Assembly: GCA_044347615.1 (NCBI GenBank)
Contig: JBIKUK010000001.1
Span: forward strand, 299,863 to 363,862
Length of the DNA stretch: 64,000 nt
DNA from: Bdellovibrionota bacterium
Lineage (GTDB): Bacteria > Bdellovibrionota > UBA2428
Direction: 5' to 3'
Of this stretch, positions 1-16,149 are shown in pieces; positions within the stretch are counted from its first letter, which is position 1, and each line of letters starts with the position of its first letter. The notes below the pieces were generated by a model. The model made no database searches. It was given only the letters and a program-made list of their open reading frames with translations, and was not told the DNA's origin. The translations under genes were made by a program, and so were the position numbers.

Positions 1-2286
1 TTTGCAATGTAAAGATTTAAGCTTTGTCCCATGTCGATCCATTTTTGGCGGCGACTTGCGCAGTCAATTAACCATTGTGGAGCTACGTCGAAAGCTGTTT
101 TGTAGAGAGACTTGAGGTTTGCAGGGATACTTGTAATAGGCTCGAGATTTCCATCGTATCTCTTGAGTTCGGAAATCATTTCTTGATTCCACAATCCAAC
201 AGCCTTTAAATCTTCTACAAGATACGGATTGATCACAGTGAATTCACCCGACATGTTGCTTTTTACAAATAAGTTTTTATAAGTAGGTTCAATAGACTGA
301 GTTGTTCCCGCAATGTTTGAGATTGTTGCTGTCGGAGCAATCGCCATACAGTTACTGTTTCTCATTCCATTTTGCTTGATCGCTGCACGAACAGGTGACC
401 AGTCAAGTTTAGCCTTGCTGTCCATATCGACTTTGTCTGCTCCACGCTCTTCGCTGACGATCTTGATCGAATCTACAGGAAGAATTCCCTTGTCCCAGAG
501 AGATCCTTTGAAGCTTGCGTAAGATCCACGTTCTTTTGCAAGTTCTGTAGAAGCAAGAATCGCGTAGTAAGAAATTAATTCCATGCTCTCATCTGCGAAG
601 TCTACAGCTTGAACGCTATCGTAAGGAATTCTCATCATGTAGAGAGCGTCTTGGAATCCCATAAGGCCAAGACCTACTGGGCGATGTTTTAAGTTTGAAT
701 TTTTTGATTCAGGAATAGGGTAGTGATTTTGATCGATCACGTTATCAAGCATGCGCATTGCAACTGTGACAGTGCGAGCGACCTTTTCACGATCCAATCC
801 CTTTCCAGGAATCATATGATTTTGAAGATTCACAGAACCCAGGTTACACACAGCGATTTCATCTTTGTTTGTATTCAAAAGAATCTCAGTGCAGAGGTTT
901 GAACTGTGAACAACTCCTACGTGCCCTTGAGGAGAGCGAAGGTTTGAAGGATCTTTGAAAGTGATCCAAGGGTGACCTGTTTCGAAAAGCATAGAAAGCA
1001 TTTTGCGCCAAACTTTGACGGCTTCTACTTTGCGGAAATTTCCGATTTCACCACGAGCTGCTTTGGCTTCATATTCAACGTAAGCTTTTTCGAAAGCTTT
1101 GCCGTAGAGATCGTGCAAGTCAGGAGTTTCTTCTGGAGAGAAGAGCGTCCATTCTGCATTGGCTTCTACTCGCTTCATGAACAAATCTGGAATCCAGTTT
1201 GCAGTGTTCATGTCGTGGCAACGGCGACGATCGTCACCTGTGTTTTTTCGAAGCTCGAGATACTCTTCAATATCGATGTGCCATGTTTCGAGATAAGAGC
1301 ACACTGCTCCTTTTCTCTTTCCACCTTGGTTCACCGCAATGGCTGTATCATTGGCAACTTTCAAAAACGGAATCACGCCTTGTGAGCTTCCGTTTGTTCC
1401 TTTGATGTGAGCGCCAAGTCCGCGCACAGGTGTCCAGTCGTTTCCAAGTCCACCAGAGAACTTAGAAAGAAGGGCGTTGTCTCGGAGAGATTTGTAAATA
1501 TCTCCGAGGTCATCAGGAATTGTTGTGAGGAAGCAAGAAGAGAGTTGGGGGTAGAGGGTTCCAGAGTTGAAGAGGGTAGGGGTTGAAGAAACGTAATCAA
1601 AAGAAGAGAGCAAATCGTAGAATTCAATCGCACGTTTTGTTCTTTCTTCTTTTGTCTTTTCAATAAGAGCAAGGCCCATACCTACACGCATCCAAAACAC
1701 TTGAGGCAATTCGATACGACGGCCTTTTACGTGAATGAAGTAACGATCGTAAAGAGTTTGAAGGCCAAGGAAGCTGAATTTCTCATCGCGCTCAGGCTTG
1801 AGGGCTGCAGCGATTTGATCGAGAGAGAATTCAGTTTTGAGACGTGGATCAAGGCGACCTTCTTGAATTCCAAGATCTAGGTAAACAGGAAGGTACTGAG
1901 TGTAAGCTTCTTTTCTTTCTGAAATTGTGACGAAATGTCCGAGGACTTCATCAAAAGTAACTTGCAAAAGAAGACGTGCTGTTACGAAAGAGTAGGCTGG
2001 ATCGCGCTCGATAAAAGCACGTGTTGCCATAATGGCCGCTTGCATGAGACTTTTCTTAGGCATTCCTTCGTAAAGGGCCTTGAGGGTTTCGTTTAAAACA
2101 AGGTTGACGTCGACTTCTTTGGAAAAGCCAGTGGCTGCTTCTTGGATAATCTGACGAACCTTTCCTTCGTTAAAAGGAACAACGCTTCCGTCGTCTAAGG
2201 TGATGGTCTTGATGGTGCCTGAAAACCCCTCTGTTTGAGGTTTTTCGTTTTCAAGGGTAAAAGAATTCTGCGTGTCCAACGACATC
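1..2286 (-). CDS. nrdA: ribonucleoside-diphosphate reductase catalytic (alpha) subunit; about 760 N-terminal codons present, 3' end runs off the window
   Basis: Own minus-strand translation: ATG at 2286-2284 preceded by AGGAG; motifs [52 protein letters not shown]. Absent from the ORF track because there is no in-frame stop inside the window. Class (Ia vs other) not resolved. Confidence 0.85.
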
Positions 2287-2423
2287 GTTATTGTCTCCTC
2301 TTTCTTAAAGGTGTCTAAATTTTTCTTGGGGAACCTGGTTTGCTGTTGGCTTCTCCCCGTTGATTAGTTACAACAGCTACCGGTCCACTTGGGCCCTTTT
2401 TCAAGGGCTCTGAAATCAGAGTC

Positions 2424-2470
2424 ACACAACATATAGACGGATTCAAGGTCACATATGGCCATATATTGTA
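2424..2470 (-). promoter_or_regulatory. candidate NrdR-box-like palindrome pair overlapping a TACAAT -10 element upstream of nrdA
   Basis: Two AT-rich palindromic elements (acacaacatatag at about 2424-2436 and ccatatattgta at about 2459-2470) spaced about three helical turns apart and resembling the NrdR box consensus; the second overlaps a TACAAT hexamer on the nrdA strand. Confidence 0.3.
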
Positions 2471-3579
2471 ATTTTTAAAAAAAAATCTAAAAAGCCTCTA
2501 AACGCGCCGCTTGCAAAAAAGAGCCGATAACACGCCGCGACTTCTGCCCAAATTTTGCATTTTGAGCAAGCAATTTTTTATGGCCTCGCGTAATTTGACA
2601 CCTTCTTTAATTGAAGTTCCGTTGACAGATTTGTCGAAAAATTCTTTGAGGATTTTGTTTTAATTTCTTCCTAGCTACTTAGAATACTTCAAAGAAACGA
2701 GTCGCAAAAAGCGCAGGCATTTATCAGAGAAAGAGTCGGTGCTACTGGAGGCAGAAGCTAAACTTTTTCTTGCGTCTCTTTGGTGAAGATCATTTCCTTT
2801 GATTAATTCACGGGTTTTTGCTGGAAGATCTTCTTTTGTACGAGAAAGCCAATTGTTGATTGATCTAAATTCTTTTTCTAAGAATTTATTCGTATATTTG
2901 ATGGCTTCTTCGTATTCATCACTATCATTTTTAGGATTTCTTGCGAGAGTTTCTAGCAAACAAAGTAGGGCCTCAGGGTGGGCTTTGAGTGCTTCATGTC
3001 CGTATTGTGCAAGCAGGTCAAACCCCCAATAATTAATTTCAGAGGATAAGAAGTTTAAAGCGGGTCTGAGTCGGGATTCTAACGGTGGGTAGTTAAAGTT
3101 GAGCTGAGGATTAGTTAAACAGAGCAGAGAATTCCGCGAAAAGCGAAGCTAAGCTGCTCCACGAGAGCCGATAGCTTTTCAAAGAATTCGAGTGGCGAGA
3201 AGACGGCGACAGTTGTTCCATTAGTCCATGGAGTTTTGAGGCGGTAGTGTATGTCACCGTTATTTGCTTAGGAGAGTCTTTATTCACTTACAGCAGGCCT
3301 GTCGGTGTAGCGAACTAATTGTTCGAGACTTGCTTTGTTGGTGCTCCAGGCGGAGACAGCTCTAGGCGGTCGTTTTGTTTGGGGTGCTAACGACAGCGCA
3401 AGTGCCGCCTGCACTGCTAGGAATTCAAACGGACAACCTTCATTTACAAACATAAAGATTTTTATGCTGGAGAACTATAAACTCAAAGTGGTCCGTTCCT
3501 AAAAGGGGAGAAAATCTATATCTTTTTTCATAGCTGAAACTAATAGGGTTTCGGTATTCTTAGATCTTTTATTAATAGC

Positions 3580-4653
3580 CTAAGTGAGTCTACTCTTTTC
3601 AACTACTTTATCAATCCAATAAGAATAAGTATCAAGAACTTTATTTTTAGAAAATTTCTTAGCTTGAATCAGTCCTTTTTCTTCATATTTTTTCCTTAAA
3701 TCAGCGTCTGTTAAAAATTTAACCAAAGCTTCTTTAAATTCAGAATCCTTAACAAGCACTCCAGCATCCCCAACAACTCGAATCAAACCCTCATTATCCA
3801 AATTTTCGGTAGCAAGTACCGGCAAGCCACAATTCATAGCTTCCAAATAAGGACGACCAAAACCCTCATATAAAGAAGGATATGCAAAAACCCAAGACTC
3901 TGAGAAAAACTTTAACAACTTTTCTTTATCGACATTTAAGAAAAATTCAACATTTGGATGTTTTGGACAAAAATCTGAAACCATTATCAGTCTAGCATCT
4001 GGGATTTCGAGTAAAACCTCCTCAGTAAATCGTTCAAACAAAAACTTTCCCCTTTTTCTACCATGCCATGTCCCCACAAATAGAACAGTAGGGTTTTGAG
4101 CTTTTATTGAAGAAGGTTTAAAATCTTCTTCAATTACAATATTATCTACAACAGCATCTGCCTTATAAATTTTTGATGAATTTATACCACTACATAGAAC
4201 ACAATCAGCTAACCTAGAGGATAACTTCTCGAAATAAGTAATAACTTTTTGTGAAATCTTTCTTTTAAAAGAGGTAGCATATCTGGACTCGTAAAATGCT
4301 GATCCTTGAAAAATACGAATTGATTTAATTTGTCGTCTAAAAAAAAACCAATCATCCCCTGTGAGAATTATAACATCATAATTTTTAAAGTTTAGAAAAT
4401 TAAGAGAAACTGGCAAAATTAATAAACGGAAAAATTTATCTGGTAATATTTTTGAAAGTCTATAAAATATTTTTTTCGTTTTAAAAGTAAAAACTTCGGA
4501 ACCTCCAAAAATATAATAAAATGTCACGTTATAGCCAATGTTTTGTAAGCTAGAAGCGAGTGTAAGATTAGCTATATCCACTCCTCCAACCCTCTTCCCA
4601 TTAACAAATGGAAGCGCTGAACCAAAGAAAGCAACTTTTATACAATCTTTCAT
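3580..4653 (-). CDS. family 1 (GT4-like) glycosyltransferase
   Basis: 357-aa ORF; C-terminal EGFGRPYLEAMNCGLPVLAT motif (E-x7-E type) typical of retaining GT-B glycosyltransferases; markedly AT-rich compared with neighbours. Confidence 0.8.
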   Translation of the reverse strand: MKDCIKVAFFGSALPFVNGKRVGGVDIANLTLASSLQNIGYNVTFYYIFGGSEVFTFKTKKIFYRLSKILPDKFFRLLILPVSLNFLNFKNYDVIILTGDDWFFFRRQIKSIRIFQGSAFYESRYATSFKRKISQKVITYFEKLSSRLADCVLCSGINSSKIYKADAVVDNIVIEEDFKPSSIKAQNPTVLFVGTWHGRKRGKFLFERFTEEVLLEIPDARLIMVSDFCPKHPNVEFFLNVDKEKLLKFFSESWVFAYPSLYEGFGRPYLEAMNCGLPVLATENLDNEGLIRVVGDAGVLVKDSEFKEALVKFLTDADLRKKYEEKGLIQAKKFSKNKVLDTYSYWIDKVVEKSRLT

Positions 4654-4774
4654 TTTAACACCGTTTTTATAAGTCTATAATATCGCAGGTGACATTGATT
4701 TCCTTGAAAGAAAATAAAAATTATTACAGCTACAACCGGAATATTTTAAAAGAGTGTCGTAGAAAGCCCAGACT

Positions 4775-4848
4775 TGGAGGCGGCACCCGGATTTGAACCG
4801 GGGGTGAAGCTTTTGCAGAGCCTTGCCTTACCACTTGGCTATGCCGCC
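4775..4848 (-). tRNA. tRNA-Cys (anticodon GCA), CCA encoded
   Basis: Minus strand reads GGCGGCA-TA-GCC..GGC-A-AGGCT-CTGCAAA-AGCTT-CACC-CCCGG-TTCAAAT-CCGGG-TGCCGCC-T-CCA: 7-bp acceptor stem, 5-bp anticodon stem with GCA at positions 34-36, T-arm with TTCAAAT loop. Confidence 0.9.
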
Positions 4849-4952
4849 TTTGTTAATTGAGAGCCTCTTTATACCCTAATGGCTCCCTCACACAATCTCA
4901 ACACCTCTTTAAATGCAAAATTGCTGCAAATTTGGCTATGATTGCAAAGCTT

Positions 4953-4983
4953 CCCTTGACTTCTGCCATGCGAATCCCCAGAT
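4953..4983 (+). promoter_or_regulatory. sigma-32 (RpoH)-type heat-shock promoter candidate
   Basis: CCCTTGAC (4953-4960), 15-nt spacer, CCCCAGAT (4976-4983); matches the CCCTTGAA-N13-15-CCCCATNT consensus at 7/8 + 7/8; lies just upstream of the fmdB-like ORF and groES-groEL. Confidence 0.45.
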
Positions 4984-4999
4984 TCAATATGCCGTACGT

Positions 5000-5317
5000 A
5001 TGATTTACGAGTACAAATGCCAAGACTGTGGCCAAATTAACGAATTTTGGATGAAGATCTCCGATCCTTCTCCAACAGAGTGCCCTAGTTGTAAGGGTCC
5101 TAAATTAGAACGTATTATTTCTAAAACATCATTCGCTCTGAAAGGGACAGGATGGTACACCTCTGACTATAAGAGAGCAGGAACGTCTGCTCCGACTTCA
5201 ATAAGCTCTACAGCGTCTTCAGCTGCGGATTGTTGTGCGGGAGCATCTTGCGGGAGTTCATCACAGAGCTCAACAGGCAGTTCAACAACGAGTTCTTCAA
5301 AAGGGGACGCAAGTTGA
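5000..5317 (+). CDS. FmdB-family zinc-ribbon protein (CxxC...CxxC) with Ser/Thr/Cys-rich low-complexity tail
   Basis: Internal ATG at 5000 gives MIYEYKCQDCGQ...ECPSCKG, the typical N-terminus of FmdB-family zinc ribbons. The track ORF starts at 4913, but that extension would contain the sigma-32-like promoter, so the shorter start is preferred. Confidence 0.65.
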   Translation: MIYEYKCQDCGQINEFWMKISDPSPTECPSCKGPKLERIISKTSFALKGTGWYTSDYKRAGTSAPTSISSTASSAADCCAGASCGSSSQSSTGSSTTSSSKGDAS

Positions 5318-5416
5318 AAATGAAATTTGGAAAACAGATTTGCCTAGAGGCAGATCTTTATAAACAGAGCGCTGAAAAAACTTCTCAGTGCCTGTTAAAA
5401 ATTTAAGGAGGAAGTT

Positions 5417-5704
5417 ATGGCAATAAGACCACTTCATGATCGTTTACTTGTAAAAAGACTTGATGAAGAAACTAAAACAAAAGGTGGAATCATCATCCCT
5501 GATAGCGCAAAAGAAAAACCACTCGAAGGTGCTGTTGTCGCTGTAGGCAAAGGAAAGCTCAGCAACGAAGGAAAAGTTACTCCTCTTGATGTAAGAGCAG
5601 GAGATAAAATTCTTTTCGGAAAATACGCTGGAACAGAAGTTAAAATTGATGGAACTGAGCATCTTATTCTTCGTGAAGAAGATGTCCTCGCTATTATAGA
5701 TTAA
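5417..5704 (+). CDS. groES: co-chaperonin GroES
   Basis: 95 aa, [14 protein letters not shown]...[13 protein letters not shown]; AAGGAGG ribosome-binding site 7 nt upstream. Confidence 0.97.
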
Positions 5705-7381
<1,677 letters not shown>

Positions 7382-7413
7382 GTCGAACAGCCAAAATATT
7401 GTTCTCCAAAAAA

Positions 7414-7446
7414 CCCTCGGTCTCGAAAGAGATCGGGGGTTTTTCA
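7414..7446 (+). terminator. rho-independent terminator after groEL
   Basis: ccctcggtctc-gaaa-gagatcggggg stem (about 11 bp with G-U pairs, GNRA loop) followed by a T-run. Confidence 0.7.
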
Positions 7447-7526
7447 TTTTCATAAAGACTAATCTTTCGCAAGACTTAACTAAAAATTAATAAAAATCTC
7501 TCACTGATCTGTCATCCTTTAAAGAG

Positions 7527-9374
7527 GTGCAGTCTGTGGGCTACTTTGGAAGAAATTTTTTTTCTCTTTTATTTATGAGCTTTTTTTTGCAGTCTTGTTT
7601 GGTTCAGCAAGCACCTGAAAGAGGAATGACTTCACCAGGAAATAATTCAACCCCAAATCAGACAAACACTCTAGGGCTTTGGAGTCGAAGCCCTGTTCAA
7701 AGCGCTGGATATTTAGTTGATGCAGGTGATAATTTAGAAATATTAAACAGGCAAAGTGTAGTTTTGTACGATCTGTTGAGTTCAAATGGAAATCTAAATG
7801 GATCGACGGTGAATGTTTATTATTCTCCTAACGACAAGAATTCCCCTCGTTTGAATGCCTATGGTTCAAGTAAAATCCCTTGGAGTAATAAAGATTTTCA
7901 AGCTTACATGGTTTATGCGCATACAAGTGGTGCCTATAGATATATTCAGTCGCTTTTTCCAGATATTAAATTTGAGGTAAACGGAAAGAATCTTTTTCCT
8001 GTTCCTGCTTTTGCTCTCGTAAAGGGATCTCCTTTTGAGACCGGGTATATAGTTAATTATTCGAGTTCTCAATTGGGAGCTCTTATGTTTTATGGAGAAG
8101 ATGACCCGAGTTTTCCGTACAATGTGAGTGATGAAGCAGACGTGATTTATCATGAAGTTGCTCATTCTTTTCAGCATGTTTTAAATCCAAGCGTTATGGA
8201 AACTCCAGGGTATTACGATATGGATATGCTGCTTGAAGCTCTTGCAGATTTTTTTGCTGCGAGCGCCCTAAGAGACGACAAGATTTTACTTTACTTAGAA
8301 GCAAATTCTCCATCTTATGGTGCAGATCGAAACGGATCTAATCAAATAAGACGACTCGATGGAAGTCTTTCTTTTCCCAAATCATATGTTGGAGAATACC
8401 ACTTGGATGGTCGAGTGATTGCAAGTGCTCTAAATGATGTGCGTAAATATCTAACGAATCAAATTGTTATTGTTTCGCAACCAACGAGCAAGTCGCTTCG
8501 GTGGTTAGCTTCAAAGCCGCTTACCACGAGTCAAGCTTTTGATAAGGTATTGGTTTCTTCTCATGAGGCGCTAAGGGTAATGCTTCCTACATCTACAGTT
8601 TTATTTTTCACTCAAAAATTTTTAGATAATTTAATGGAGGGTGATTGGAGTGTTTATTGTGGAGTTGATTTAAGTTGCGAGAATCGATTAAGAAGCGATG
8701 TCATTTCTATTTTAGTTTCAAGAGGCATATATAAATCGTCAAACGATCTGAGATCTAAATCTTTTAGTGTGGGTTTGTTGGATGATATGGGTATTAACCC
8801 TTCTGGTGCCGAGATTATATTTGATAAAACCCTTAAGTTTTTTCCGCTTTCTCCTTCAAATGGGTACTCAAATGTAGATGCTTCTGTCGATAAGTGTGAA
8901 GCTCTTTTGGTGACACCGAATTTTTATTTAGCCTCAGGAGTCGCTCATTCTGTTTATGATACGTTGTTTAGATTGAAATCCTCTCTGGGATTGTCCTCTT
9001 ATCGAAGCATTGACCTTTTAAGTGCTTCCTCAACGAGTTCTGCAAAAACTTTAAAGCTTTTTGGATTCATACTTCCAGGTGAAGATACGTTTGAAGCGAT
9101 TACAAGCAATCGTTTTTACGATGATCATCAAGGAAGTCACTTAACGTCTACGTCGTTAAGCCCAGAAAATCCATCTGCCTTGGGGTGGGCTGCTCGCGCG
9201 CCAGCAGTTTTGTATCCAAATGATCGATCAAATACAGGTCGGGGAGCTATCACTTACGAAATGAGTTTTAGACCCTTTGAATTGTTAAATGCGCCAAATT
9301 CTGTTTATTCAGTATTGAACATAACTCAATCGGTATATGTTTCTGGTACAGCTAATTTTTGCTCAAAGAACTAA
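7527..9374 (+). CDS. putative secreted zinc metallopeptidase (HExxH), probable lipoprotein
   Basis: 615-aa ORF with GTG start; N-terminal hydrophobic segment ending in LQSC (lipobox-like); HEVAH motif in DVIYHEVAHSFQHV. Family not assignable by eye. Confidence 0.55.
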   Translation: MQSVGYFGRNFFSLLFMSFFLQSCLVQQAPERGMTSPGNNSTPNQTNTLGLWSRSPVQSAGYLVDAGDNLEILNRQSVVLYDLLSSNGNLNGSTVNVYYSPNDKNSPRLNAYGSSKIPWSNKDFQAYMVYAHTSGAYRYIQSLFPDIKFEVNGKNLFPVPAFALVKGSPFETGYIVNYSSSQLGALMFYGEDDPSFPYNVSDEADVIYHEVAHSFQHVLNPSVMETPGYYDMDMLLEALADFFAASALRDDKILLYLEANSPSYGADRNGSNQIRRLDGSLSFPKSYVGEYHLDGRVIASALNDVRKYLTNQIVIVSQPTSKSLRWLASKPLTTSQAFDKVLVSSHEALRVMLPTSTVLFFTQKFLDNLMEGDWSVYCGVDLSCENRLRSDVISILVSRGIYKSSNDLRSKSFSVGLLDDMGINPSGAEIIFDKTLKFFPLSPSNGYSNVDASVDKCEALLVTPNFYLASGVAHSVYDTLFRLKSSLGLSSYRSIDLLSASSTSSAKTLKLFGFILPGEDTFEAITSNRFYDDHQGSHLTSTSLSPENPSALGWAARAPAVLYPNDRSNTGRGAITYEMSFRPFELLNAPNSVYSVLNITQSVYVSGTANFCSKN

Positions 9375-11336
9375 CTAATTTTTCAAAAGATCTTTTATTC
9401 TGTGGAACGTTAAACCTTTTGATTTTAAAGCAAGCCACATTGAAAGAGCAAAACTTGTAAGAATATTTCCTATAAGTATGAATAAAACCCCCGAAACACA
9501 TGAAAAAAAAAGACTTGGGGTGATGTCTTGGTAAGGAAGGCTGGCAAGAGCAAGAGTCAAGGATCCGGCAGAAAGAGTGACGTGTCTGACTTCAAGAGGG
9601 AGTCCGAATATTTTTCCAAATATAGGCGAAAAGGCAAGTAATATTCCTAGTGCTATATTAGCAACAACGCTTGCCAAGTTTTTTTCAAGCCAAAGACTCA
9701 ATTTTTTTCTTCGTTCAAGACTTAAAAAACTTTCCACCAAAAAAGAATCAGATAAAAGTTGCGGAACTCCTCTGAAAATCATCCAATTCTCTACCCATCC
9801 ATGAATAATTCCCGTAGACGATAAAAAAACTCCAGTTAGTAAAGCGTAAAAAATTGTAAGGCTTTCAAAGGGATTGTGTGCTTTTACTAGAAGGATTGCA
9901 TCGTTTCGATCCATGAATTTTGTTTGAAAAATCAATTCCCATGCCAGAAGAAGAAAGTAGCATGTAGGGATAACAGCAGATATATTTCCAAGTGCCGCCA
10001 GGGCTTGTGACTTAAGTACGTTTTTTATTTCTTTTTTAAGTTCTAAAAAATTATTTTTCTTTTGGTTCATTCTTCTAGCTAAAGATGCAGCTGTCATGGC
10101 TGGTTGTTTTGTTGCAAGAGTCAAATGTAAGAATTGCATAAGAATAAAACTTCCAGAATAATTAAGAGCCGCAAAAAATCCTTGAAAGAAAAAAGCTGTA
10201 TTTAAATGATGAAGAATACTTTTAAAAAGTGTTGTGAAAGCTGTTACAAAACCCGCTCCAAGAGCAGCTTTAAAAAGGGTTAGGCTTTGACGGGAGTTTC
10301 GAGCAATGTAGTCATCTCCTTTTTCTCCAGCATGATCAACTATTTTTCTAGCTAAGAAATGAATATTTTCTTCTAAAAGAACACGAGTACTTCTTCTTTT
10401 TTGTTCGTCTAAAGTTAAAAGAGAAAAGAAATCCAAGTTTTTTGAATAGGATTTTTTATTTTCAGTAAAATAACAGAGGTTTACAAGAGAGTTGATTCTT
10501 TCCAGATACAATCCCAAAACTTCAATTTGATACACAAGGTCTGCGCTTAATCCTCCGCCTTCAAGATGATCAGATATTCCATTAAGATCGAGAAGGCATT
10601 TTTTGTAAATATCCAAAAATTCTTCTTTTATATTTTGTTGCTTTGAAGAATCTGAATAAGTTTTCAGGCCATATTCAAACTGGTGGAGGAACTTGTTAAG
10701 CTCTAAAAAAGGATGGTGATCATCGAGATTATTTGAAAAATTCCACCGAATATCTCTAATAAGAGGACTTTCAGAAATAATGAGAGCTTCAGCAGATAAA
10801 ATAACAAGAGAATCTATGATTTTTTTTGAAAATTTATCTTTTAAGAATTCAACACCCTTTTCTGAGCTTTGAAGTTTCGGGTCAAAGATCGTAAGGAAAG
10901 AGTTATATTCTTTCAAAGGTAAAGTTTGCAGAAATTGAGCATCGTATTCATTAGGAAAAATAAAAAAAAGGAGATCTTTAAAGTTAGGTCGTTTGGAATG
11001 TCTTGGAATTATTTTTTCAAGAATGCGAGAGCCTAGTTCTCTGATAAATCCATGAGGTTTAGAAAGTCCCGTTTGAGTTAGAAGTGAGTTAAAGTCAAAG
11101 CACTCAAGGATCCTGAGAAAAAGAAGGCTAAATTTTTTCTTTTGAGTTAAATCTTCATTTAAAAGGTTTAGAAAATTTTTTACTTTTTTGGGAGAAATTA
11201 ATTGGTTTTTTTTCGAAATAAAGGAATCTTCCCTTAAACTTTGTACGATCAAGTAAAGAACTCGCGCGCATTCAGTAGCGTTAAGCGTTTCAATTTTTTT
11301 GCTTTCTAAATTAAGGAGAGATTTTATTTCTTCCAT
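9375..11336 (-). CDS. hypothetical protein, soluble N-terminal half plus polytopic membrane C-terminal half
   Basis: 653-aa ORF; C-terminal about 280 aa contain several hydrophobic helices; its start lies 2 nt after the Slt stop, suggesting translational coupling. Confidence 0.55.
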   Translation of the reverse strand: MEEIKSLLNLESKKIETLNATECARVLYLIVQSLREDSFISKKNQLISPKKVKNFLNLLNEDLTQKKKFSLLFLRILECFDFNSLLTQTGLSKPHGFIRELGSRILEKIIPRHSKRPNFKDLLFFIFPNEYDAQFLQTLPLKEYNSFLTIFDPKLQSSEKGVEFLKDKFSKKIIDSLVILSAEALIISESPLIRDIRWNFSNNLDDHHPFLELNKFLHQFEYGLKTYSDSSKQQNIKEEFLDIYKKCLLDLNGISDHLEGGGLSADLVYQIEVLGLYLERINSLVNLCYFTENKKSYSKNLDFFSLLTLDEQKRRSTRVLLEENIHFLARKIVDHAGEKGDDYIARNSRQSLTLFKAALGAGFVTAFTTLFKSILHHLNTAFFFQGFFAALNYSGSFILMQFLHLTLATKQPAMTAASLARRMNQKKNNFLELKKEIKNVLKSQALAALGNISAVIPTCYFLLLAWELIFQTKFMDRNDAILLVKAHNPFESLTIFYALLTGVFLSSTGIIHGWVENWMIFRGVPQLLSDSFLVESFLSLERRKKLSLWLEKNLASVVANIALGILLAFSPIFGKIFGLPLEVRHVTLSAGSLTLALASLPYQDITPSLFFSCVSGVLFILIGNILTSFALSMWLALKSKGLTFHRIKDLLKN

Positions 11337-11337
11337 A

Positions 11338-12906
11338 TTAATTTTGTAATTTTTCCTTATCGTAGAGTACGGAGTACCAGTAGTGATTTCTTAAAACTTT
11401 CGCAACGTAACCTCTTGTTTCACTGTAAGGAATGAGGTCAATAAAAAGCATAGGGTCTTGTGTGTTGTATCTTTTTTTCCATTCTTCGACTTTGTTTGGG
11501 CCTGCATTGTAAGCAGCAAGAGCAAAATCCATTCGGCTTTGTTTTTTCATAAGATCTGAAAGAATCTCACTTCCAACTTCTATGTTTGTTTCAAGATCGT
11601 AAAGATAGCTTTCTGATTTTACATTATAGTTTGCGGCTGTTGAAGGGAGTATCTGCATAAAACCTCTTGCGTTCGCTGGAGATCTCGCCAGCGGGTTAAA
11701 TCCACTTTCTTGTTTTGCAACTGATAGAGCTATTAAATGATCAACTTTTACTTCTGCTCGATCAAATGCTTTTTCAAATGGACGAGGGTGTAGGTGTTTA
11801 AGAATTTGAAGATTTATCACTTCCGGATCTTTAGATAAGATAAAATTACTAATCCTCACTGAATCGCTTGGTAAATTATATTTGTCAGCAAGGGCCGCGA
11901 TATAAAGTTTGTTTGCTCGACTAAAATAAGGATTAAGTTTACCTGACATTTTATAACTTAGGTTCGTAGCAGCTTTTTTCTCACCAAAGATATAAAGCGA
12001 TTCAATCCAATAAATTACTTTTTGTGAAAATGCTAAGTGAGTGTTTCTTTGTGGAACTATAAAAGCTTTTTTGAGTATTCGAGAAAAGGGATCAGTGTTC
12101 ATAATCCTTGAAGCATGAATTGAATGAAAATTAAGAGGATACTCTGTGATGAGATGATTCCAGTATACATCTCTTAACTTTTGGTTTTTTTGAAGATATC
12201 CTAACCAAAAAAGAGTTATCTCTTTTTCTTTAGGTTCAGTTGTTTTAAGCGCAGCACGAAATGCAGTTATTGCGCCCTCTCTGTCCCCCCACATATGCCG
12301 TAAAAGTCCTTGTCGTATATGTGTTAGCTCAAAATAAGAATCGTATGTTTTCAGGCATTGGGCTGCTCTTTGATAACCAACTTCCAGGCTAGCCTGTGCT
12401 TTAATTTTTGGTAGTGCAAGTTCATACATTCTTAAACTAGCAACTAATAAATTTTGAGGACATTTTTTTGAGCTTATTAAGATTGGAAGCCAGCTCATGA
12501 TATCGTCAAATGAATATTTTCTAAGTGCATCCAAGAGTTCACCGGGTCTTGCTTTTTGTGCTTGCTCGAACGTTTTACGATTTATAAATTCAGGCACGCT
12601 AGCATAATTTGTTGGGGTTTCTTTTTTTAAAAATTTTTCGGACCGCTCATCTTTTAATTCAAGGATTTTAATTAATTCACAGAGACTTTTTTTTGAGGCT
12701 TGGTTACTTTTGCAGTTTTTAACAAGATTTTTTTCAGCATAAGAGGTTTGATTTAAATATTGTGCGAGTTCTTTTGTTTGTTTTTTGTGTTCATTTTTTG
12801 TAAGCAAAAGGCCTTTTGCAATTTCTTCTTCGGTTACAACAATTGATTGGGCTAGAATTCGTTCAGCTCCTAAAAGTAAAAAAAAGAATACTAAAGTCCT
12901 TTTCAT
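11338..12906 (-). CDS. soluble lytic murein transglycosylase (Slt family)
   Basis: 522 aa with N-terminal signal peptide; SLT catalytic motif region AKQESGFNPLARSPANARGFMQILPSTA. Confidence 0.8.
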   Translation of the reverse strand: MKRTLVFFFLLLGAERILAQSIVVTEEEIAKGLLLTKNEHKKQTKELAQYLNQTSYAEKNLVKNCKSNQASKKSLCELIKILELKDERSEKFLKKETPTNYASVPEFINRKTFEQAQKARPGELLDALRKYSFDDIMSWLPILISSKKCPQNLLVASLRMYELALPKIKAQASLEVGYQRAAQCLKTYDSYFELTHIRQGLLRHMWGDREGAITAFRAALKTTEPKEKEITLFWLGYLQKNQKLRDVYWNHLITEYPLNFHSIHASRIMNTDPFSRILKKAFIVPQRNTHLAFSQKVIYWIESLYIFGEKKAATNLSYKMSGKLNPYFSRANKLYIAALADKYNLPSDSVRISNFILSKDPEVINLQILKHLHPRPFEKAFDRAEVKVDHLIALSVAKQESGFNPLARSPANARGFMQILPSTAANYNVKSESYLYDLETNIEVGSEILSDLMKKQSRMDFALAAYNAGPNKVEEWKKRYNTQDPMLFIDLIPYSETRGYVAKVLRNHYWYSVLYDKEKLQN

Positions 12907-15243: not shown

Positions 15244-16149
15244 GTGCAAAATCTTTTAGAAAGTTTTCTAGATTATTTGGCTCATGAACAGAGAGTGTCG
15301 CCTCTTACGATTGAAGCGTATAAGAACGATCTTTTGTTTTGGCAGAAAACACTTTCTTCATTAACGGTAGAAAACCCTACTCCCCAAACATCGAGTGACT
15401 TCTTAAAAGCTTTAGAAAATTTAAAAAATCAAAAATACAAGGAAAGCACTCAACATCGAAAAAGAGCTGTACTGAGAAGTTTTTTACGCTTTCGATCTTA
15501 TCAACGTGATTCATGGGCAAGCTATGTGAATCTGATTCCTCTTTCAAATCATGAGGAGCTTTTGCCGAAAGCTTTATCCGTTAAGGAAGTTTCCGTTCTT
15601 TTAGAAACAATTGAAAATTCAAATGATACAAGATCAGAAAGAGACGCGGCTTTTGTAAATCTTTTGTATTCATCGGGGCTTCGTGTATCGGAGGCGCTTA
15701 ATTTGGAATGGACGCATTTGGATGAACAAAGACAAGTGCTTAGGGTCCTGGGCAAGGGCGCAAAAGAACGTTTGGTGCCTTACTCAGAAAGAAGCGCAAG
15801 AGCTCTCGATAAATACAAAAAAAATTCATGGCAAAAATGGAGCTGTGGAAAACTAAAGGAAAAGTCAAAAACGCGGGCGATTTTTATTTCAGCTCGCTCA
15901 AAGAATCTAACTCGAATGGGGGCATGGAAGGCCCTTTCTTTTTGGAGTCAGATGGCAGGACTGGAGCATGTTCATCCACACGTTTTAAGGCATTCCTTTG
16001 CCACGCATTTGCTGGGTGGCGGAGCGGATGTTCGTGTTGTTCAGTGTTTGTTGGGGCATTCGTCGATTAATACGACGGAACGTTATTTAAAGATTGAAGA
16101 CGAGGATGTTCAGCGCTTATTCAGGGACTACCATCCCTTAGCGGAATAG
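15244..16149 (+). CDS. tyrosine recombinase, XerC/XerD family
   Basis: 301 aa, GTG start; C-terminal catalytic region HPHVLRHSFATHLL...LLGHSSINTTERYLKI with the conserved R..H..R..Y residues of tyrosine recombinases. Confidence 0.85.
   Translation: MQNLLESFLDYLAHEQRVSPLTIEAYKNDLLFWQKTLSSLTVENPTPQTSSDFLKALENLKNQKYKESTQHRKRAVLRSFLRFRSYQRDSWASYVNLIPLSNHEELLPKALSVKEVSVLLETIENSNDTRSERDAAFVNLLYSSGLRVSEALNLEWTHLDEQRQVLRVLGKGAKERLVPYSERSARALDKYKKNSWQKWSCGKLKEKSKTRAIFISARSKNLTRMGAWKALSFWSQMAGLEHVHPHVLRHSFATHLLGGGADVRVVQCLLGHSSINTTERYLKIEDEDVQRLFRDYHPLAE

What the first reader, a model, noticed from the sequence alone, without database searches (positions are those of the whole stretch)
3580..4848. 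Very AT-rich glycosyltransferase immediately downstream of tRNA-Cys: probable small acquired islet
tRNA genes are common integration sites. The GT1-family gene directly downstream of tRNA-Cys on the same strand is much more AT-rich than the flanking housekeeping genes, and it is followed by the compositionally aberrant GC-rich block. No integrase or clear direct repeat of the tRNA 3' end was found, so if this is an islet it is old or degraded.
Basis: partly seen in the sequence, partly recalled or inferred. Interest (0 to 1): 0.4.

Follow-up and report, generated by a model that had tools for sequence, protein, structure and literature searches.

The report
Glycosyltransferase islet at tRNA-Cys hotspot
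A lone sugar-transferase gene sits beside a tRNA gene in a short stretch that holds toxin-antitoxin pairs, other genes or nothing in related bacteria, so it is an ordinary horizontally acquired "hot-spot" gene and not a new kind of element.

Summary
A 357-aa GT4 (Pfam Glycos_transf_1) glycosyltransferase lies at 3580..4653 (-), 121 nt downstream of tRNA-Cys(GCA) at 4775..4848 (-). It has the lowest GC (0.316) and GC3 (0.209) of 42 long ORFs in the window.

Composition alone is weak evidence (z about -2). The comparative evidence is decisive:
- Contigs with an identical GroES lose all similarity to the window one base past the CCA end of the tRNA (4774).
- They carry HigBA-like, or HigBA-like plus HicAB, toxin-antitoxin genes there instead of the GT.
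- More distant relatives have an empty site (nrdA, 495 bp, tRNA-Cys) or other cargo. That makes six states in all.
- The nearest non-self GT homologue among 5.8 billion proteins is 44% identical, and none of the few closest homologues that carry a taxon name is from Bdellovibrionota.

So 2647-4773 is a lineage-specific islet in an HGT hotspot. It has no integrase and no tRNA direct repeat. The "GC-rich block" is partly (2673-3139) a relic of a multi-copy cassette or repeat-protein gene; 3140-3579 stays unexplained. The nrdBA-tRNA-groESL flanks show anomalously low synonymous divergence, which favours recombination at conserved flanks over site-specific integration. This is a known kind of feature and of modest interest.

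The parts
3..2285 (-). nrdA (class I ribonucleotide reductase alpha subunit, N-terminal 761 codons; runs off the window start). Conserved left flank of the hotspot.
   Evidence: PF02867/PF00317/ATP-cone. NCBIfam PRK07207 at 1300 bits. 94.5% nt identity to L006. aa identity 98.7%, dS 0.30.
2286..2646 (-). nrdA leader/promoter region, conserved with sister L006. It contains a palindromic segment (2421-2470) that is conserved even in the distant relative L108. That segment looks like NrdR boxes, but the assignment rests on my own knowledge and was not tested.
   Evidence: 97.5% identity over 362 nt to L006. Segment 2421-2470 is 90% identical to L108 1902-1951.
2647..4773 (.). The variable interval (islet), 2127 bp. 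It is absent from or replaced in every relative examined.
   Evidence: blastn breakpoints at 2646 and 4774 against L006. Breakpoint at 4774 against L009-L020. Empty site of 495 bp in L102 and L105.
2673..3139 (-). Relic copy of a multi-copy cassette family. The frame is open from about 3140 to the stop at 2675. It encodes '...AQYGHEALKAHPEALLCLLETLARNP...LVSLKYSK', which is the repeat motif and tail of a large tandem-repeat protein.
   Evidence: 88-96% nt identity to copies at two other loci, L110-L114 and L115-L117. tblastn matches to the C-terminal 102/123-bp tandem repeats of the 955-aa protein of L009. A 71-bp remnant (2676-2746, 84.5%) survives in L006.
2675..2959 (-). 94-aa ORF (TTG start) called inside the relic. 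It is 65% identical, with a 29-aa deletion, to 123-aa ORFs elsewhere in related genomes. It is probably not an independent gene.
   Evidence: No Pfam, NCBIfam or PADLOC hit.
3140..3579 (.). It holds only short overlapping ORFs (57, 58 and 55 aa) with no family hits.
   Evidence: No Rfam match at E<=0.1. Folding z-scores 0.06 (+) and -1.85 (-). No Pfam hit worth noting: 57- and 58-aa ORFs none at E<=10, 55-aa ORF only a sub-threshold PF06488 hit (E 0.027, 14.3 vs 23.6 bits). No phage or plasmid similarity. Similar only to contigs of the same lineage.
3580..4653 (-). GT4-family (GT-B fold, retaining type) glycosyltransferase, 357 aa. This is the cargo gene.
   Evidence: PF00534 at 66 bits, PF13692 at 62 bits. 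E263 and E271 of the EX7E motif are invariant in 39 homologues. AlphaFold2 pLDDT 91.5. Foldseek TM 0.7-0.77 to MshA, GlgM, BshA, PimA, WaaG and PglA. Lowest GC and GC3 in the window. Best non-self homologue 44% identical.
4654..4774 (-). Spacer between the tRNA and the GT. It is AT-rich, has one sigma-70-like site (4749..4720, with an extended -10 TG) and no predicted terminator.
   Evidence: This is a consensus match only and is not evidence of function.
4775..4848 (-). tRNA-Cys(GCA) with encoded CCA. It forms the right boundary of the islet.
   Evidence: Identical in all sister contigs. Similarity resumes at 4774.
4913..7381 (+). Conserved right flank: fmdB-type zinc-ribbon gene (4913..5317), groES (5417..5704) and groEL (5717..7381).
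   Evidence: PF09723/TIGR02605. groESL is 96.3-96.6% nt identical to the sisters. groEL dS 0.155.

Best explanation
Window 2647-4773 is a small lineage-specific accessory islet. It occupies a horizontal-transfer hotspot between the nrdA leader and the 3' end of tRNA-Cys, in an uncultured freshwater member of Bdellovibrionota/Oligoflexia.

Its only credible gene is a stand-alone GT4 (GT-B, retaining) glycosyltransferase. It was acquired from outside the lineage.

Inferred function: the enzyme adds one sugar from a nucleotide-sugar donor to an envelope acceptor (lipid, LPS/EPS or another glycan), giving this population a surface variant. Donor and acceptor are unknown.

The islet is composite. 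The nrdA-proximal 0.47 kb is an older relic of a repeat-protein/cassette gene. That gene is intact, or left as a 71-bp stub, in sister lineages. The tRNA-proximal 1.6 kb (unexplained spacer plus the GT) stands where the sisters carry toxin-antitoxin modules.

Inferred mechanism: cargo turnover probably proceeds without a site-specific integrase. It would use homologous or homology-facilitated illegitimate recombination, anchored in the very conserved flanking genes (nrdBA on one side, tRNA-Cys-fmdB-groESL on the other).

Shown: the position, the variability, the absence of orthologues, the fold and family, and the absence of an integrase and att repeats.
Inferred: the direction of events, the recombination mechanism and the physiological role.

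Confidence by sub-claim: accessory and acquired about 0.9; GT4 enzyme about 0.9; integrase-free recombination mechanism about 0.5.
For: 1. Variable cargo at one site.
- Contigs with 100% identical GroES carry either GT + relic, or a HigBA-like TA pair, or HigBA-like + HicAB + a >=955-aa repeat protein, between nrdA and tRNA-Cys.
- Relatives with GroEL 84-85% identical have an empty 495-bp site.
- L108 (82%) and L229 (91%) carry other cargo.

2. Breakpoints.
- Similarity to all sisters stops at 4774, one nt past the tRNA's CCA.
- On the other side it stops at 2646, plus a 71-bp remnant at 2676-2746.

3. No orthologues. The next-best hit among 5.8 billion proteins is 44% identical (an Omnitrophota MAG). 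The other named close homologues are Obscuribacterales, Rhodothermales and Acidobacteriota.

4. Composition. The GT has the lowest GC and GC3 of 42 ORFs.

5. Not an assembly artefact. The same arrangement occurs on 7 contigs from independent ENA, JGI and Logan assemblies.

6. Enzyme identity.

7. No integrase, transposase or att repeat.

8. Recombination signal, window lineage versus sisters.
- Inside the block, nrdB, nrdA, fmdB, groES and groEL have dS 0.13-0.33 and aa identity 89.6-100%. The non-coding nrdA leader is 97.5% identical.
- Genes on both sides have dS 1.4-2.0 and aa identity 63-72%.
- A control pair (L102-L105) with similar background divergence has groEL dS 0.39, nrdA dS 0.67 and a leader only 72.7% identical.

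9. Known pattern. About half of HGT hotspots lack any recognizable mobile element, most lack an integrase, and their flanking core genes show excess homologous recombination (PMC5635113).
Against: - Direction is not fully polarised. The window lineage is the outgroup to all TA-bearing sisters. TA loss plus GT gain, versus TA gain in the sisters, cannot be separated.
- An insertion exactly at a tRNA 3' end is also the classic signature of tyrosine-integrase islands. A decayed island cannot be excluded.
- The low dS of groEL and nrdAB could be partly codon-usage selection. Only about 20 kb of the sister genomes was available, so the 'background' divergence rests on 4-5 genes.
- Composition is only a 2-sigma outlier.
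- No expression or activity data exist. The GT is the odd one out at 20 of 39 near-invariant subfamily positions. That could mean relaxed constraint rather than function.
- That the large repeat gene of L009-type sisters abuts nrdA is inferred. Their contigs end inside its tandem repeats.
Confidence: 0.6

Rival explanations
1. Decayed integrase-mediated tRNA island. A small integrative element carrying the GT inserted by site-specific recombination into the 3' end of tRNA-Cys. It later lost its integrase and its distal att repeat by deletion.
For: - The boundary falls exactly at the tRNA 3' end.
- The same tRNA is the boundary for different cargo in at least five other lineages. Recurrent integrase targeting would produce this.
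- An unexplained 440-bp non-coding stretch (3140-3579) could be debris.
- A weak inverted match to the tRNA 3' end lies at 3402-3426.
Against: - No integrase domain is present in the window interval or in the cargo held for any of the other lineages.
- No direct repeat of the tRNA 3' end occurs in the window, in the TA-bearing sisters or at the empty sites.
- The one 19/24 match, in L108, lies inside a coding region and looks like chance.
- The 12-mer at 3402 is in the wrong (inverted) orientation, with about 0.01 expected by chance.
- A strongly conserved tRNA gene will mark the edge of any replaced segment, whatever the mechanism.
Confidence: 0.25
2. Ancestral gene, differential loss. The GT was present next to tRNA-Cys in the common ancestor. 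It was lost or replaced in all the other lineages sampled.
For: The window lineage branches outside all TA-bearing sisters. Its state is therefore not formally derived. The nrdA-proximal relic is shared with L006, so part of the interval is old.
Against: - At least four independent losses would be needed (sisters, L229, L102/L105, L108).
- No homologue above 44% identity exists anywhere, and none of the few named close homologues is from Bdellovibrionota.
- The GT has the lowest GC3 in the window.
- Two outgroup lineages have an empty site with no gene remnants.
Confidence: 0.08
3. Not an islet at all. Under this view it is an ordinary, weakly expressed core gene whose AT-richness reflects mutational bias. 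Alternatively, it is a chimeric metagenome assembly that joins unrelated DNA at the conserved tRNA.
For: GC 0.316 is only 2 sd below the window mean, and several other genes have GC 0.32-0.33. All the data come from metagenome assemblies.
Against: The identical junctions were recovered on 7 contigs from six independent samples and three assembly pipelines, one of them a 750-kb contig. Comparative absence from the sisters does not depend on composition.
Confidence: 0.03

Closest known systems
Integrase-free HGT hotspots between conserved core genes (Oliveira, Touchon, Rocha and co-workers 2017, PMC5635113)
   Same: - An interval bounded by the same core genes holds different accessory genes in different genomes (six states here).
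- It has no integrase, transposase or other mobile-element gene.
- Its flanking core genes show a signature of homologous recombination.
- The cargo types (cell-envelope enzyme, toxin-antitoxin pairs) are typical.
   Different: - The islet is very small (2.1 kb, one real gene).
- It was seen only in metagenome-assembled contigs of an uncultured Bdellovibrionota/Oligoflexia group.
- 'Hotspot' is used qualitatively here. The statistical definition (number of transferred genes above a simulated threshold across a clade's pangenome) could not be applied.
tRNA-linked genomic islands or islets inserted by tyrosine integrases (established knowledge, e.g. pathogenicity islands at selC, leuX and asn tRNAs)
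   Same: The boundary is exactly at the 3' end of a tRNA gene. Base composition is atypical. Presence among relatives is strain-specific.
   Different: There is no integrase and no direct repeat of the tRNA 3' end, either here or in the alternative cargos held for relatives. Two defining features were tested and not met.
GT4-family retaining GT-B glycosyltransferases (MshA, PimA, BshA, WaaG, PglA, GlgM)
   Same: Pfam PF00534 domain, EX7E motif, two-Rossmann-domain fold. TM-score 0.7-0.77 to solved structures.
   Different: Only 15-18% identity to any solved enzyme. No NCBIfam equivalog comes near its cutoff (best 37 bits against 500). JGI's name 'phosphatidylinositol alpha-mannosyltransferase' is therefore unsupported. 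The protein belongs to a distinct, uncharacterised subfamily (motifs GDDWF and GTWxGRKRG) and is the most divergent member of that subfamily.
Glycosyltransferase-bearing flexible genomic islands of aquatic bacteria (replacement-type 'glycotype' islands; own knowledge, not checked in the library)
   Same: A surface-glycan enzyme varies between co-occurring freshwater populations. A second variable sugar-gene spot lies 4.5 kb away.
   Different: Those islands are usually 10-100 kb multigene clusters. Here there is one orphan GT with no partner sugar-synthesis or export genes.

Membership tests
GT4 / Pfam Glycos_transf_1 (GT-B retaining glycosyltransferases) | Match to PF00534 above the gathering score | tested here: met
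   66 bits against a cutoff of 26.4, residues 174-327. PF13692 at 62 bits.
GT4 / Pfam Glycos_transf_1 (GT-B retaining glycosyltransferases) | EX7E catalytic/nucleotide-sugar motif in the C-terminal domain | tested here: met
   E263-GFGRPYL-E271. Both Glu residues are invariant in 39 aligned homologues.
GT4 / Pfam Glycos_transf_1 (GT-B retaining glycosyltransferases) | GT-B fold (two Rossmann-like domains) | tested here: met
   AlphaFold2 model with pLDDT 91.5 and pTM 0.89. Foldseek probability 1.00 and TM 0.7-0.77 to MshA, GlgM, BshA, PimA and WaaG.
GT4 / Pfam Glycos_transf_1 (GT-B retaining glycosyltransferases) | Glycosyl transfer activity, and donor and acceptor identity | not testable with these tools
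   This needs biochemistry.
PimA (phosphatidylinositol alpha-mannosyltransferase), the name given by JGI | Equivalog-level sequence match to a characterised enzyme family | tested here: not met
   All 15 NCBIfam hits lie far below their cutoffs (best 37.4 bits against 500) and cover only the C-terminal 100 residues. PDB sequence search finds only one marginal hit.
Integrase-mediated tRNA-linked genomic island | Inserted at the 3' end of a tRNA gene | tested here: met
   Similarity to the sisters ends at 4774. The tRNA CCA end is at 4775.
Integrase-mediated tRNA-linked genomic island | Encodes a tyrosine or serine integrase, or a recognisable pseudogene of one | tested here: not met
   No integrase domain in any ORF of 20 aa or more in 2647-4773. 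The nearest PF00589 gene is a XerC/D-like ORF at 15244..16149, outside the islet. The PF10136 'site-specific recombinase' at 9375..11336 is a conserved core gene in all sisters.
Integrase-mediated tRNA-linked genomic island | Direct repeat of the tRNA 3' end (attR) at the distal boundary | tested here: not met
   No direct match of 12-30 nt at up to 30% mismatch in 2201-4774. No second match in the whole window at up to 3 mismatches in 16 nt. None in the sisters.
Integrase-mediated tRNA-linked genomic island | Atypical composition and sporadic distribution | tested here: met
HGT hotspot sensu Oliveira et al. 2017 | The same pair of flanking core genes with different accessory content across genomes | tested here: met
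   Six states between nrdA and tRNA-Cys/groESL. In L229 and the L009-type contigs nrdA itself is not on the contig.
HGT hotspot sensu Oliveira et al. 2017 | Number of transferred genes above a clade-specific simulated threshold | not testable with these tools
   This needs complete pangenomes of the clade.
HGT hotspot sensu Oliveira et al. 2017 | Excess homologous recombination in the flanking core genes | tested here: inconclusive
   The dS contrast is 0.13-0.33 against 1.4-2.0, and the leader is 97.5% identical. The control pair shows leader 72.7% and groEL dS 0.39. This is suggestive, but it rests on about 20 kb and no formal recombination test was run.

The most novel reading that the evidence does not exclude
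The roughly 9.5-kb block nrdB-nrdA-[hotspot]-tRNA-Cys-fmdB-groES-groEL may act as a 'homology raft'. Under this reading the block is exchanged by homologous recombination between freshwater Bdellovibrionota lineages that are otherwise diverged at genus level (neighbouring genes 63-72% aa identity, dS above 1.4). The raft would ferry alternative small cargos (an orphan GT4, HigBA or HicAB modules, repeat-protein cassettes) between lineages without any integrase. The multi-copy 'HEALKAHPEA' cassettes, with their AATTAATTATTGGGGGTTTGA junction motif, might then be a recombination-driven variable surface-protein system.
Probability: 0.25. Interest if true: 0.45.

Novelty: new member of a known kind. 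Interest (0 to 1): 0.25.

Why it matters
It gives a clean, breakpoint-resolved example of a tRNA-adjacent HGT hotspot in an uncultured group (Bdellovibrionota/Oligoflexia) for which little is known about the flexible genome. Co-occurring populations differ at this spot by a surface-glycan enzyme in one and toxin-antitoxin modules in the others. These gene classes are typically linked to phage or prey interactions.

The case also shows that composition alone would not have been convincing, whereas comparative context was. The low-divergence flanks hint at recombination between quite diverged lineages. That would be worth testing with whole genomes. Nothing here challenges current understanding.

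Tried and rejected
1. Genome-contig scan with GroEL.
2. Metagenome-contig scan with an 18-mer from the unexplained block, GGTGCTCCAGGCGGAGAC. It returned 111 matches. None had any further similarity to window 2286-4900, so all were chance.
3. Rfam at E<=0.1 over 1-12000. Only the tRNA was found. The 'GC-rich block' is not a known RNA.
4. RNA folding of 2960-3580 on both strands. No significant stability.
5. Pfam at E<=10 on the 55-94-aa ORFs of the block. Only noise.
6. PADLOC on the GT, the 94-aa ORF and the sisters' cargo. The GT is not a known defence-system component. The weak PF20706 'GT4-conflict' hit (20.6 bits against a cutoff of 26) is below threshold.
7. blastn of 3040-3600 against phages and plasmids, and tblastn of the GT against phages. 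No match for the DNA. Only three remote C-terminal GT hits (29-33% identity).
8. Search for a tRNA 3'-end repeat. Only an inverted 11/12 match at 3402-3413, extended to 18/25. The orientation is wrong and the significance marginal. A 19/24 direct match in L108 lies inside a coding region and was rejected as chance.
9. I considered whether the 94-aa ORF is a real small gene. I rejected this in favour of a relic of a larger gene or cassette, because the frame stays open upstream without a start codon and continues the repeat motif of the 955-aa protein.
Full report
**1. What is there**

The window begins inside nrdA, a class I ribonucleotide reductase alpha subunit, at 3..2285 on the minus strand. 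The features that follow are:
- a 94-aa ORF at 2675..2959 (-);
- an ORF-poor stretch up to 3579;
- a 357-aa ORF at 3580..4653 (-);
- tRNA-Cys(GCA) with encoded CCA at 4775..4848 (-);
- on the plus strand, an FmdB-type zinc-ribbon gene (4913..5317), groES (5417..5704) and groEL (5717..7381).

The 357-aa protein hits PF00534 at 66 bits (cutoff 26.4) and PF13692 at 62 bits. GroEL's named relatives, at about 75% identity, are Bdellovibrionales, Oligoflexia and Bdellovibrionota MAGs. The contigs come from metagenomes whose habitat I did not check and assume to be freshwater.

**2. The observation**

The GT is 121 nt downstream of the tRNA on the same (minus) strand. GC in 400-nt windows is 0.29-0.34 across 3401-4800, against 0.41-0.48 in nrdA and 0.42-0.45 in groEL. 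Among the 42 ORFs of 150 aa or more in the window, the GT has the lowest GC (0.316, z = -2.0) and the lowest GC3 (0.209, z = -2.3). Several other genes have GC 0.32-0.33, so composition alone would not carry the case. The 'GC-rich block' (3001-3400, GC 0.475) is no richer than the housekeeping genes.

**3. Comparative test, the decisive evidence**

The exact GT protein occurs on 7 contigs from independent ENA, JGI and Logan assemblies. All show the same nrdA-94aa-57aa-GT-fmdB-groES arrangement, which rules out a chimeric assembly.

The exact GroES protein occurs on many more contigs. In these, the interval between nrdA and fmdB holds different genes:
- L006 has a Gp49/HigB-like toxin plus an HTH_37 antitoxin.
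- L009-L015 have that pair, plus HicA/HicB, plus a protein of at least 955 aa with no Pfam hit.

blastn shows that every sister contig is 98% identical to the window from 4774 rightwards and unrelated to it leftwards. Position 4774 is one base past the CCA end of the tRNA. On the other side, L006 matches through nrdA and its 360-nt leader up to 2646. It also keeps a 71-bp remnant equal to 2676-2746.

More distant relatives found through GroEL homologues show further states:
- L102 and L105 (GroEL 84-85% aa) have nrdA, then 495 bp without genes, then tRNA-Cys-fmdB-groESL. This is an empty site.
- L108 (82%) has about 6.3 kb with five other ORFs there.
- L229 (91%) has a 314-aa ORF and a TetR gene 3' of the tRNA.

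That makes six states at one site. The tRNA-Cys-groESL linkage is constant throughout.

**4. The GT has no orthologues**

Among 5.8 billion clustered proteins, the only hit above 44% identity is the protein itself. The next hits (36-44% over most of their length) include MAGs named Omnitrophota, Obscuribacterales, Rhodothermales and Acidobacteriota. The sister lineages' proteins are in the same collection, so the sisters lack the gene altogether.

In the Omnitrophota MAG the homologue is also a solitary GT and is not part of a polysaccharide cluster.

**5. What the protein is**

It aligns over its whole length with a distinct GT4 subfamily with the motifs GDDWF, GTWxGRKRG and EGFG-x-PY-x-E. 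Both Glu residues of the EX7E motif (E263, E271) are invariant. The AlphaFold2 model is confident (pLDDT 91.5). It superposes on retaining GT-B enzymes (MshA, GlgM, BshA, PimA, WaaG, PglA) at TM 0.7-0.77, with only 15-18% identity.

No NCBIfam equivalog comes near its cutoff. JGI's name 'phosphatidylinositol alpha-mannosyltransferase' is therefore not supported. PADLOC finds nothing.

The window protein is the odd one out at 20 of 39 near-invariant subfamily columns; no other member exceeds 5. Most of its changes go toward residues with AT-rich codons (H to I, G to I, A to N, W to K). This fits either a long residence in AT-rich genomes or relaxed constraint.

**6. The rest of the interval**

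On the minus strand the frame of the 94-aa ORF stays open upstream to about 3140. It reads '...AQYGHEALKAHPEALLCLLETLARNP...'. That motif is the unit of the 102/123-bp tandem repeats at the C-terminal end of the >=955-aa protein of the L009-type sisters. Their contigs all break inside these repeats.

Window 2673-3139 is also 88-96% identical to copies at two other loci in related genomes:
- after an acyltransferase gene in L110-L114;
- after a 634-aa gene in L115-L117.

These copies show a permuted order and a recurrent junction motif, AATTAATTATTGGGGGTTTGA.

Its 71-bp stub in L006 shows that it predates the split between the GT state and the TA state.

The remaining 3140-3579 has no Rfam hit, no significant fold, no protein-family hit and no phage or plasmid similarity. 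It remains unexplained.

**7. Mechanism**

No ORF in the interval, and none in the cargo held for any relative, has an integrase or transposase domain. No direct repeat of the tRNA 3' end exists in the window, in the TA-bearing sisters or at the empty sites. The only tRNA-like fragment in the window is an inverted 11/12 match at 3402-3413, or 18/25 with flanks. About 0.01 such matches are expected by chance, and the orientation is wrong for att sites.

By contrast the flanks carry a recombination-like signal. Between the window lineage and the sisters:
- nrdB, nrdA, fmdB, groES and groEL have dS of 0.33, 0.30, 0.20, 0.13 and 0.155;
- the non-coding nrdA leader is 97.5% identical;
- the next genes on both sides (mrpD-like, the 615-aa gene, the PF10136 gene, SLT) have dS 1.4-2.0 and 63-72% aa identity.

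Among the sisters themselves, groEL dS is only 2-3 times below the neighbouring genes.

The control pair L102-L105 has similar background divergence. It shows groEL dS 0.39, nrdA dS 0.67, groES 86% aa identity and a leader only 72.7% identical.

The simplest reading is that the conserved block containing the hotspot has been exchanged between otherwise diverged lineages. The conserved genes would provide the homology for cargo replacement. This matches the published finding that about half of HGT hotspots lack any recognizable mobile element, that most lack an integrase, and that their flanking core genes show excess homologous recombination (PMC5635113). It is an inference from about 20 kb of sequence, not a formal test.

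**8. History, inferred**

- Empty site (outgroups).
- A repeat-protein or cassette gene arrives next to the nrdA leader (common ancestor of the window lineage and its sisters).
- On the tRNA-proximal side, TA modules in the sisters and spacer plus GT in the window lineage.

The window lineage branches outside all sisters: groESL is 96.3-96.6% identical to them, against 98-100% among them. The order of the last steps is therefore not resolved.

**9. Verdict**

The 'tRNA integration site' mechanism is not supported by its defining features. Recombination at conserved flanks is the better-supported mechanism, with moderate confidence.

This is a new member of a well-known kind of feature. It is of low to moderate interest, mainly as a tidy example from an uncultured predatory-bacteria phylum.

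Noticed in passing
window about 1-7400, extending about 2.2 kb left of the window start (seen in L007 against L006): The block nrdB-nrdA-tRNA-Cys-fmdB-groESL has dS 0.13-0.33 and a 97.5%-identical non-coding leader between the window lineage and its sisters. Genes on both sides have dS 1.4-2.0 and 63-72% aa identity. A control pair of relatives does not show this contrast. This suggests inter-lineage homologous recombination of the block.
   Followed up: partly
window 9374/9375 (junction of the 615-aa gene and the PF10136 gene); L006 13988-15757; L009 9089-12076: This is a second variable spot. The sisters carry a WecG-family glycosyltransferase and one or two NAD-dependent epimerase/dehydratase genes between these two convergent genes. 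In the window the two genes abut directly. The lineage that has the orphan GT4 therefore lacks these sugar genes.
   Followed up: no
window 2673-3139; L110 7961-8439; L115 1980-2612; L009 1-671: A multi-copy cassette family is present at three or more loci at 88-96% nt identity. It has a junction motif, AATTAATTATTGGGGGTTTGA, and is related to the 102/123-bp tandem repeats ('HGHEALKAHPEA...') of a protein of at least 955 aa with no Pfam hit. All L009-type contigs break inside these repeats. It might be a variable surface-protein or orphan-cassette system.
   Followed up: partly
window 7527-9374: A 615-aa protein with no Pfam hit follows groEL. It is syntenic in all sisters but only 62-63% identical at the aa level, and its length varies among the sister contigs.
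   Followed up: no
window 4913-5317: The FmdB zinc-ribbon protein is 134 aa here, 125 aa in the sisters, 103 aa in L108 and 70 aa in L102 and L105. The difference lies in a Ser/Thr/Gly-rich low-complexity C-terminal tail that expands in this clade.
   Followed up: no
window 3402-3426 and 4762-4786: An imperfect inverted repeat (18/25, core 11/12) has one arm spanning the tRNA-Cys 3' end. The other arm lies inside the unexplained block. Together the arms bracket the GT gene. Significance is marginal (about 0.01 expected for the core) and the orientation is not that of att sites.
   Followed up: partly
window 9375-11336: A PF10136 'Site-specific recombinase' family protein (502 bits, 653 aa) is present. 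It occurs in every sister next to an SLT-domain (PF01464) gene, so it is a core gene and not an islet integrase. The family name should not be read as evidence of mobility here.
   Followed up: partly
window 2421-2470: A palindromic segment in the nrdA leader ('cacacaacatatagacgg...cacatatggccatatattgt') is conserved at 90% even in the distant relative L108. It looks like tandem NrdR boxes. That assignment is from my own knowledge and was not tested.
   Followed up: no
L006 8635-9268; L009 2989-4354: The sisters' cargo directly 3' of tRNA-Cys is a Gp49/HigB-like toxin with an HTH_37 antitoxin. In most of them a HicA/HicB pair is present as well. In some contigs (L014, L015) HicA is not called, which suggests decay.
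   Followed up: no
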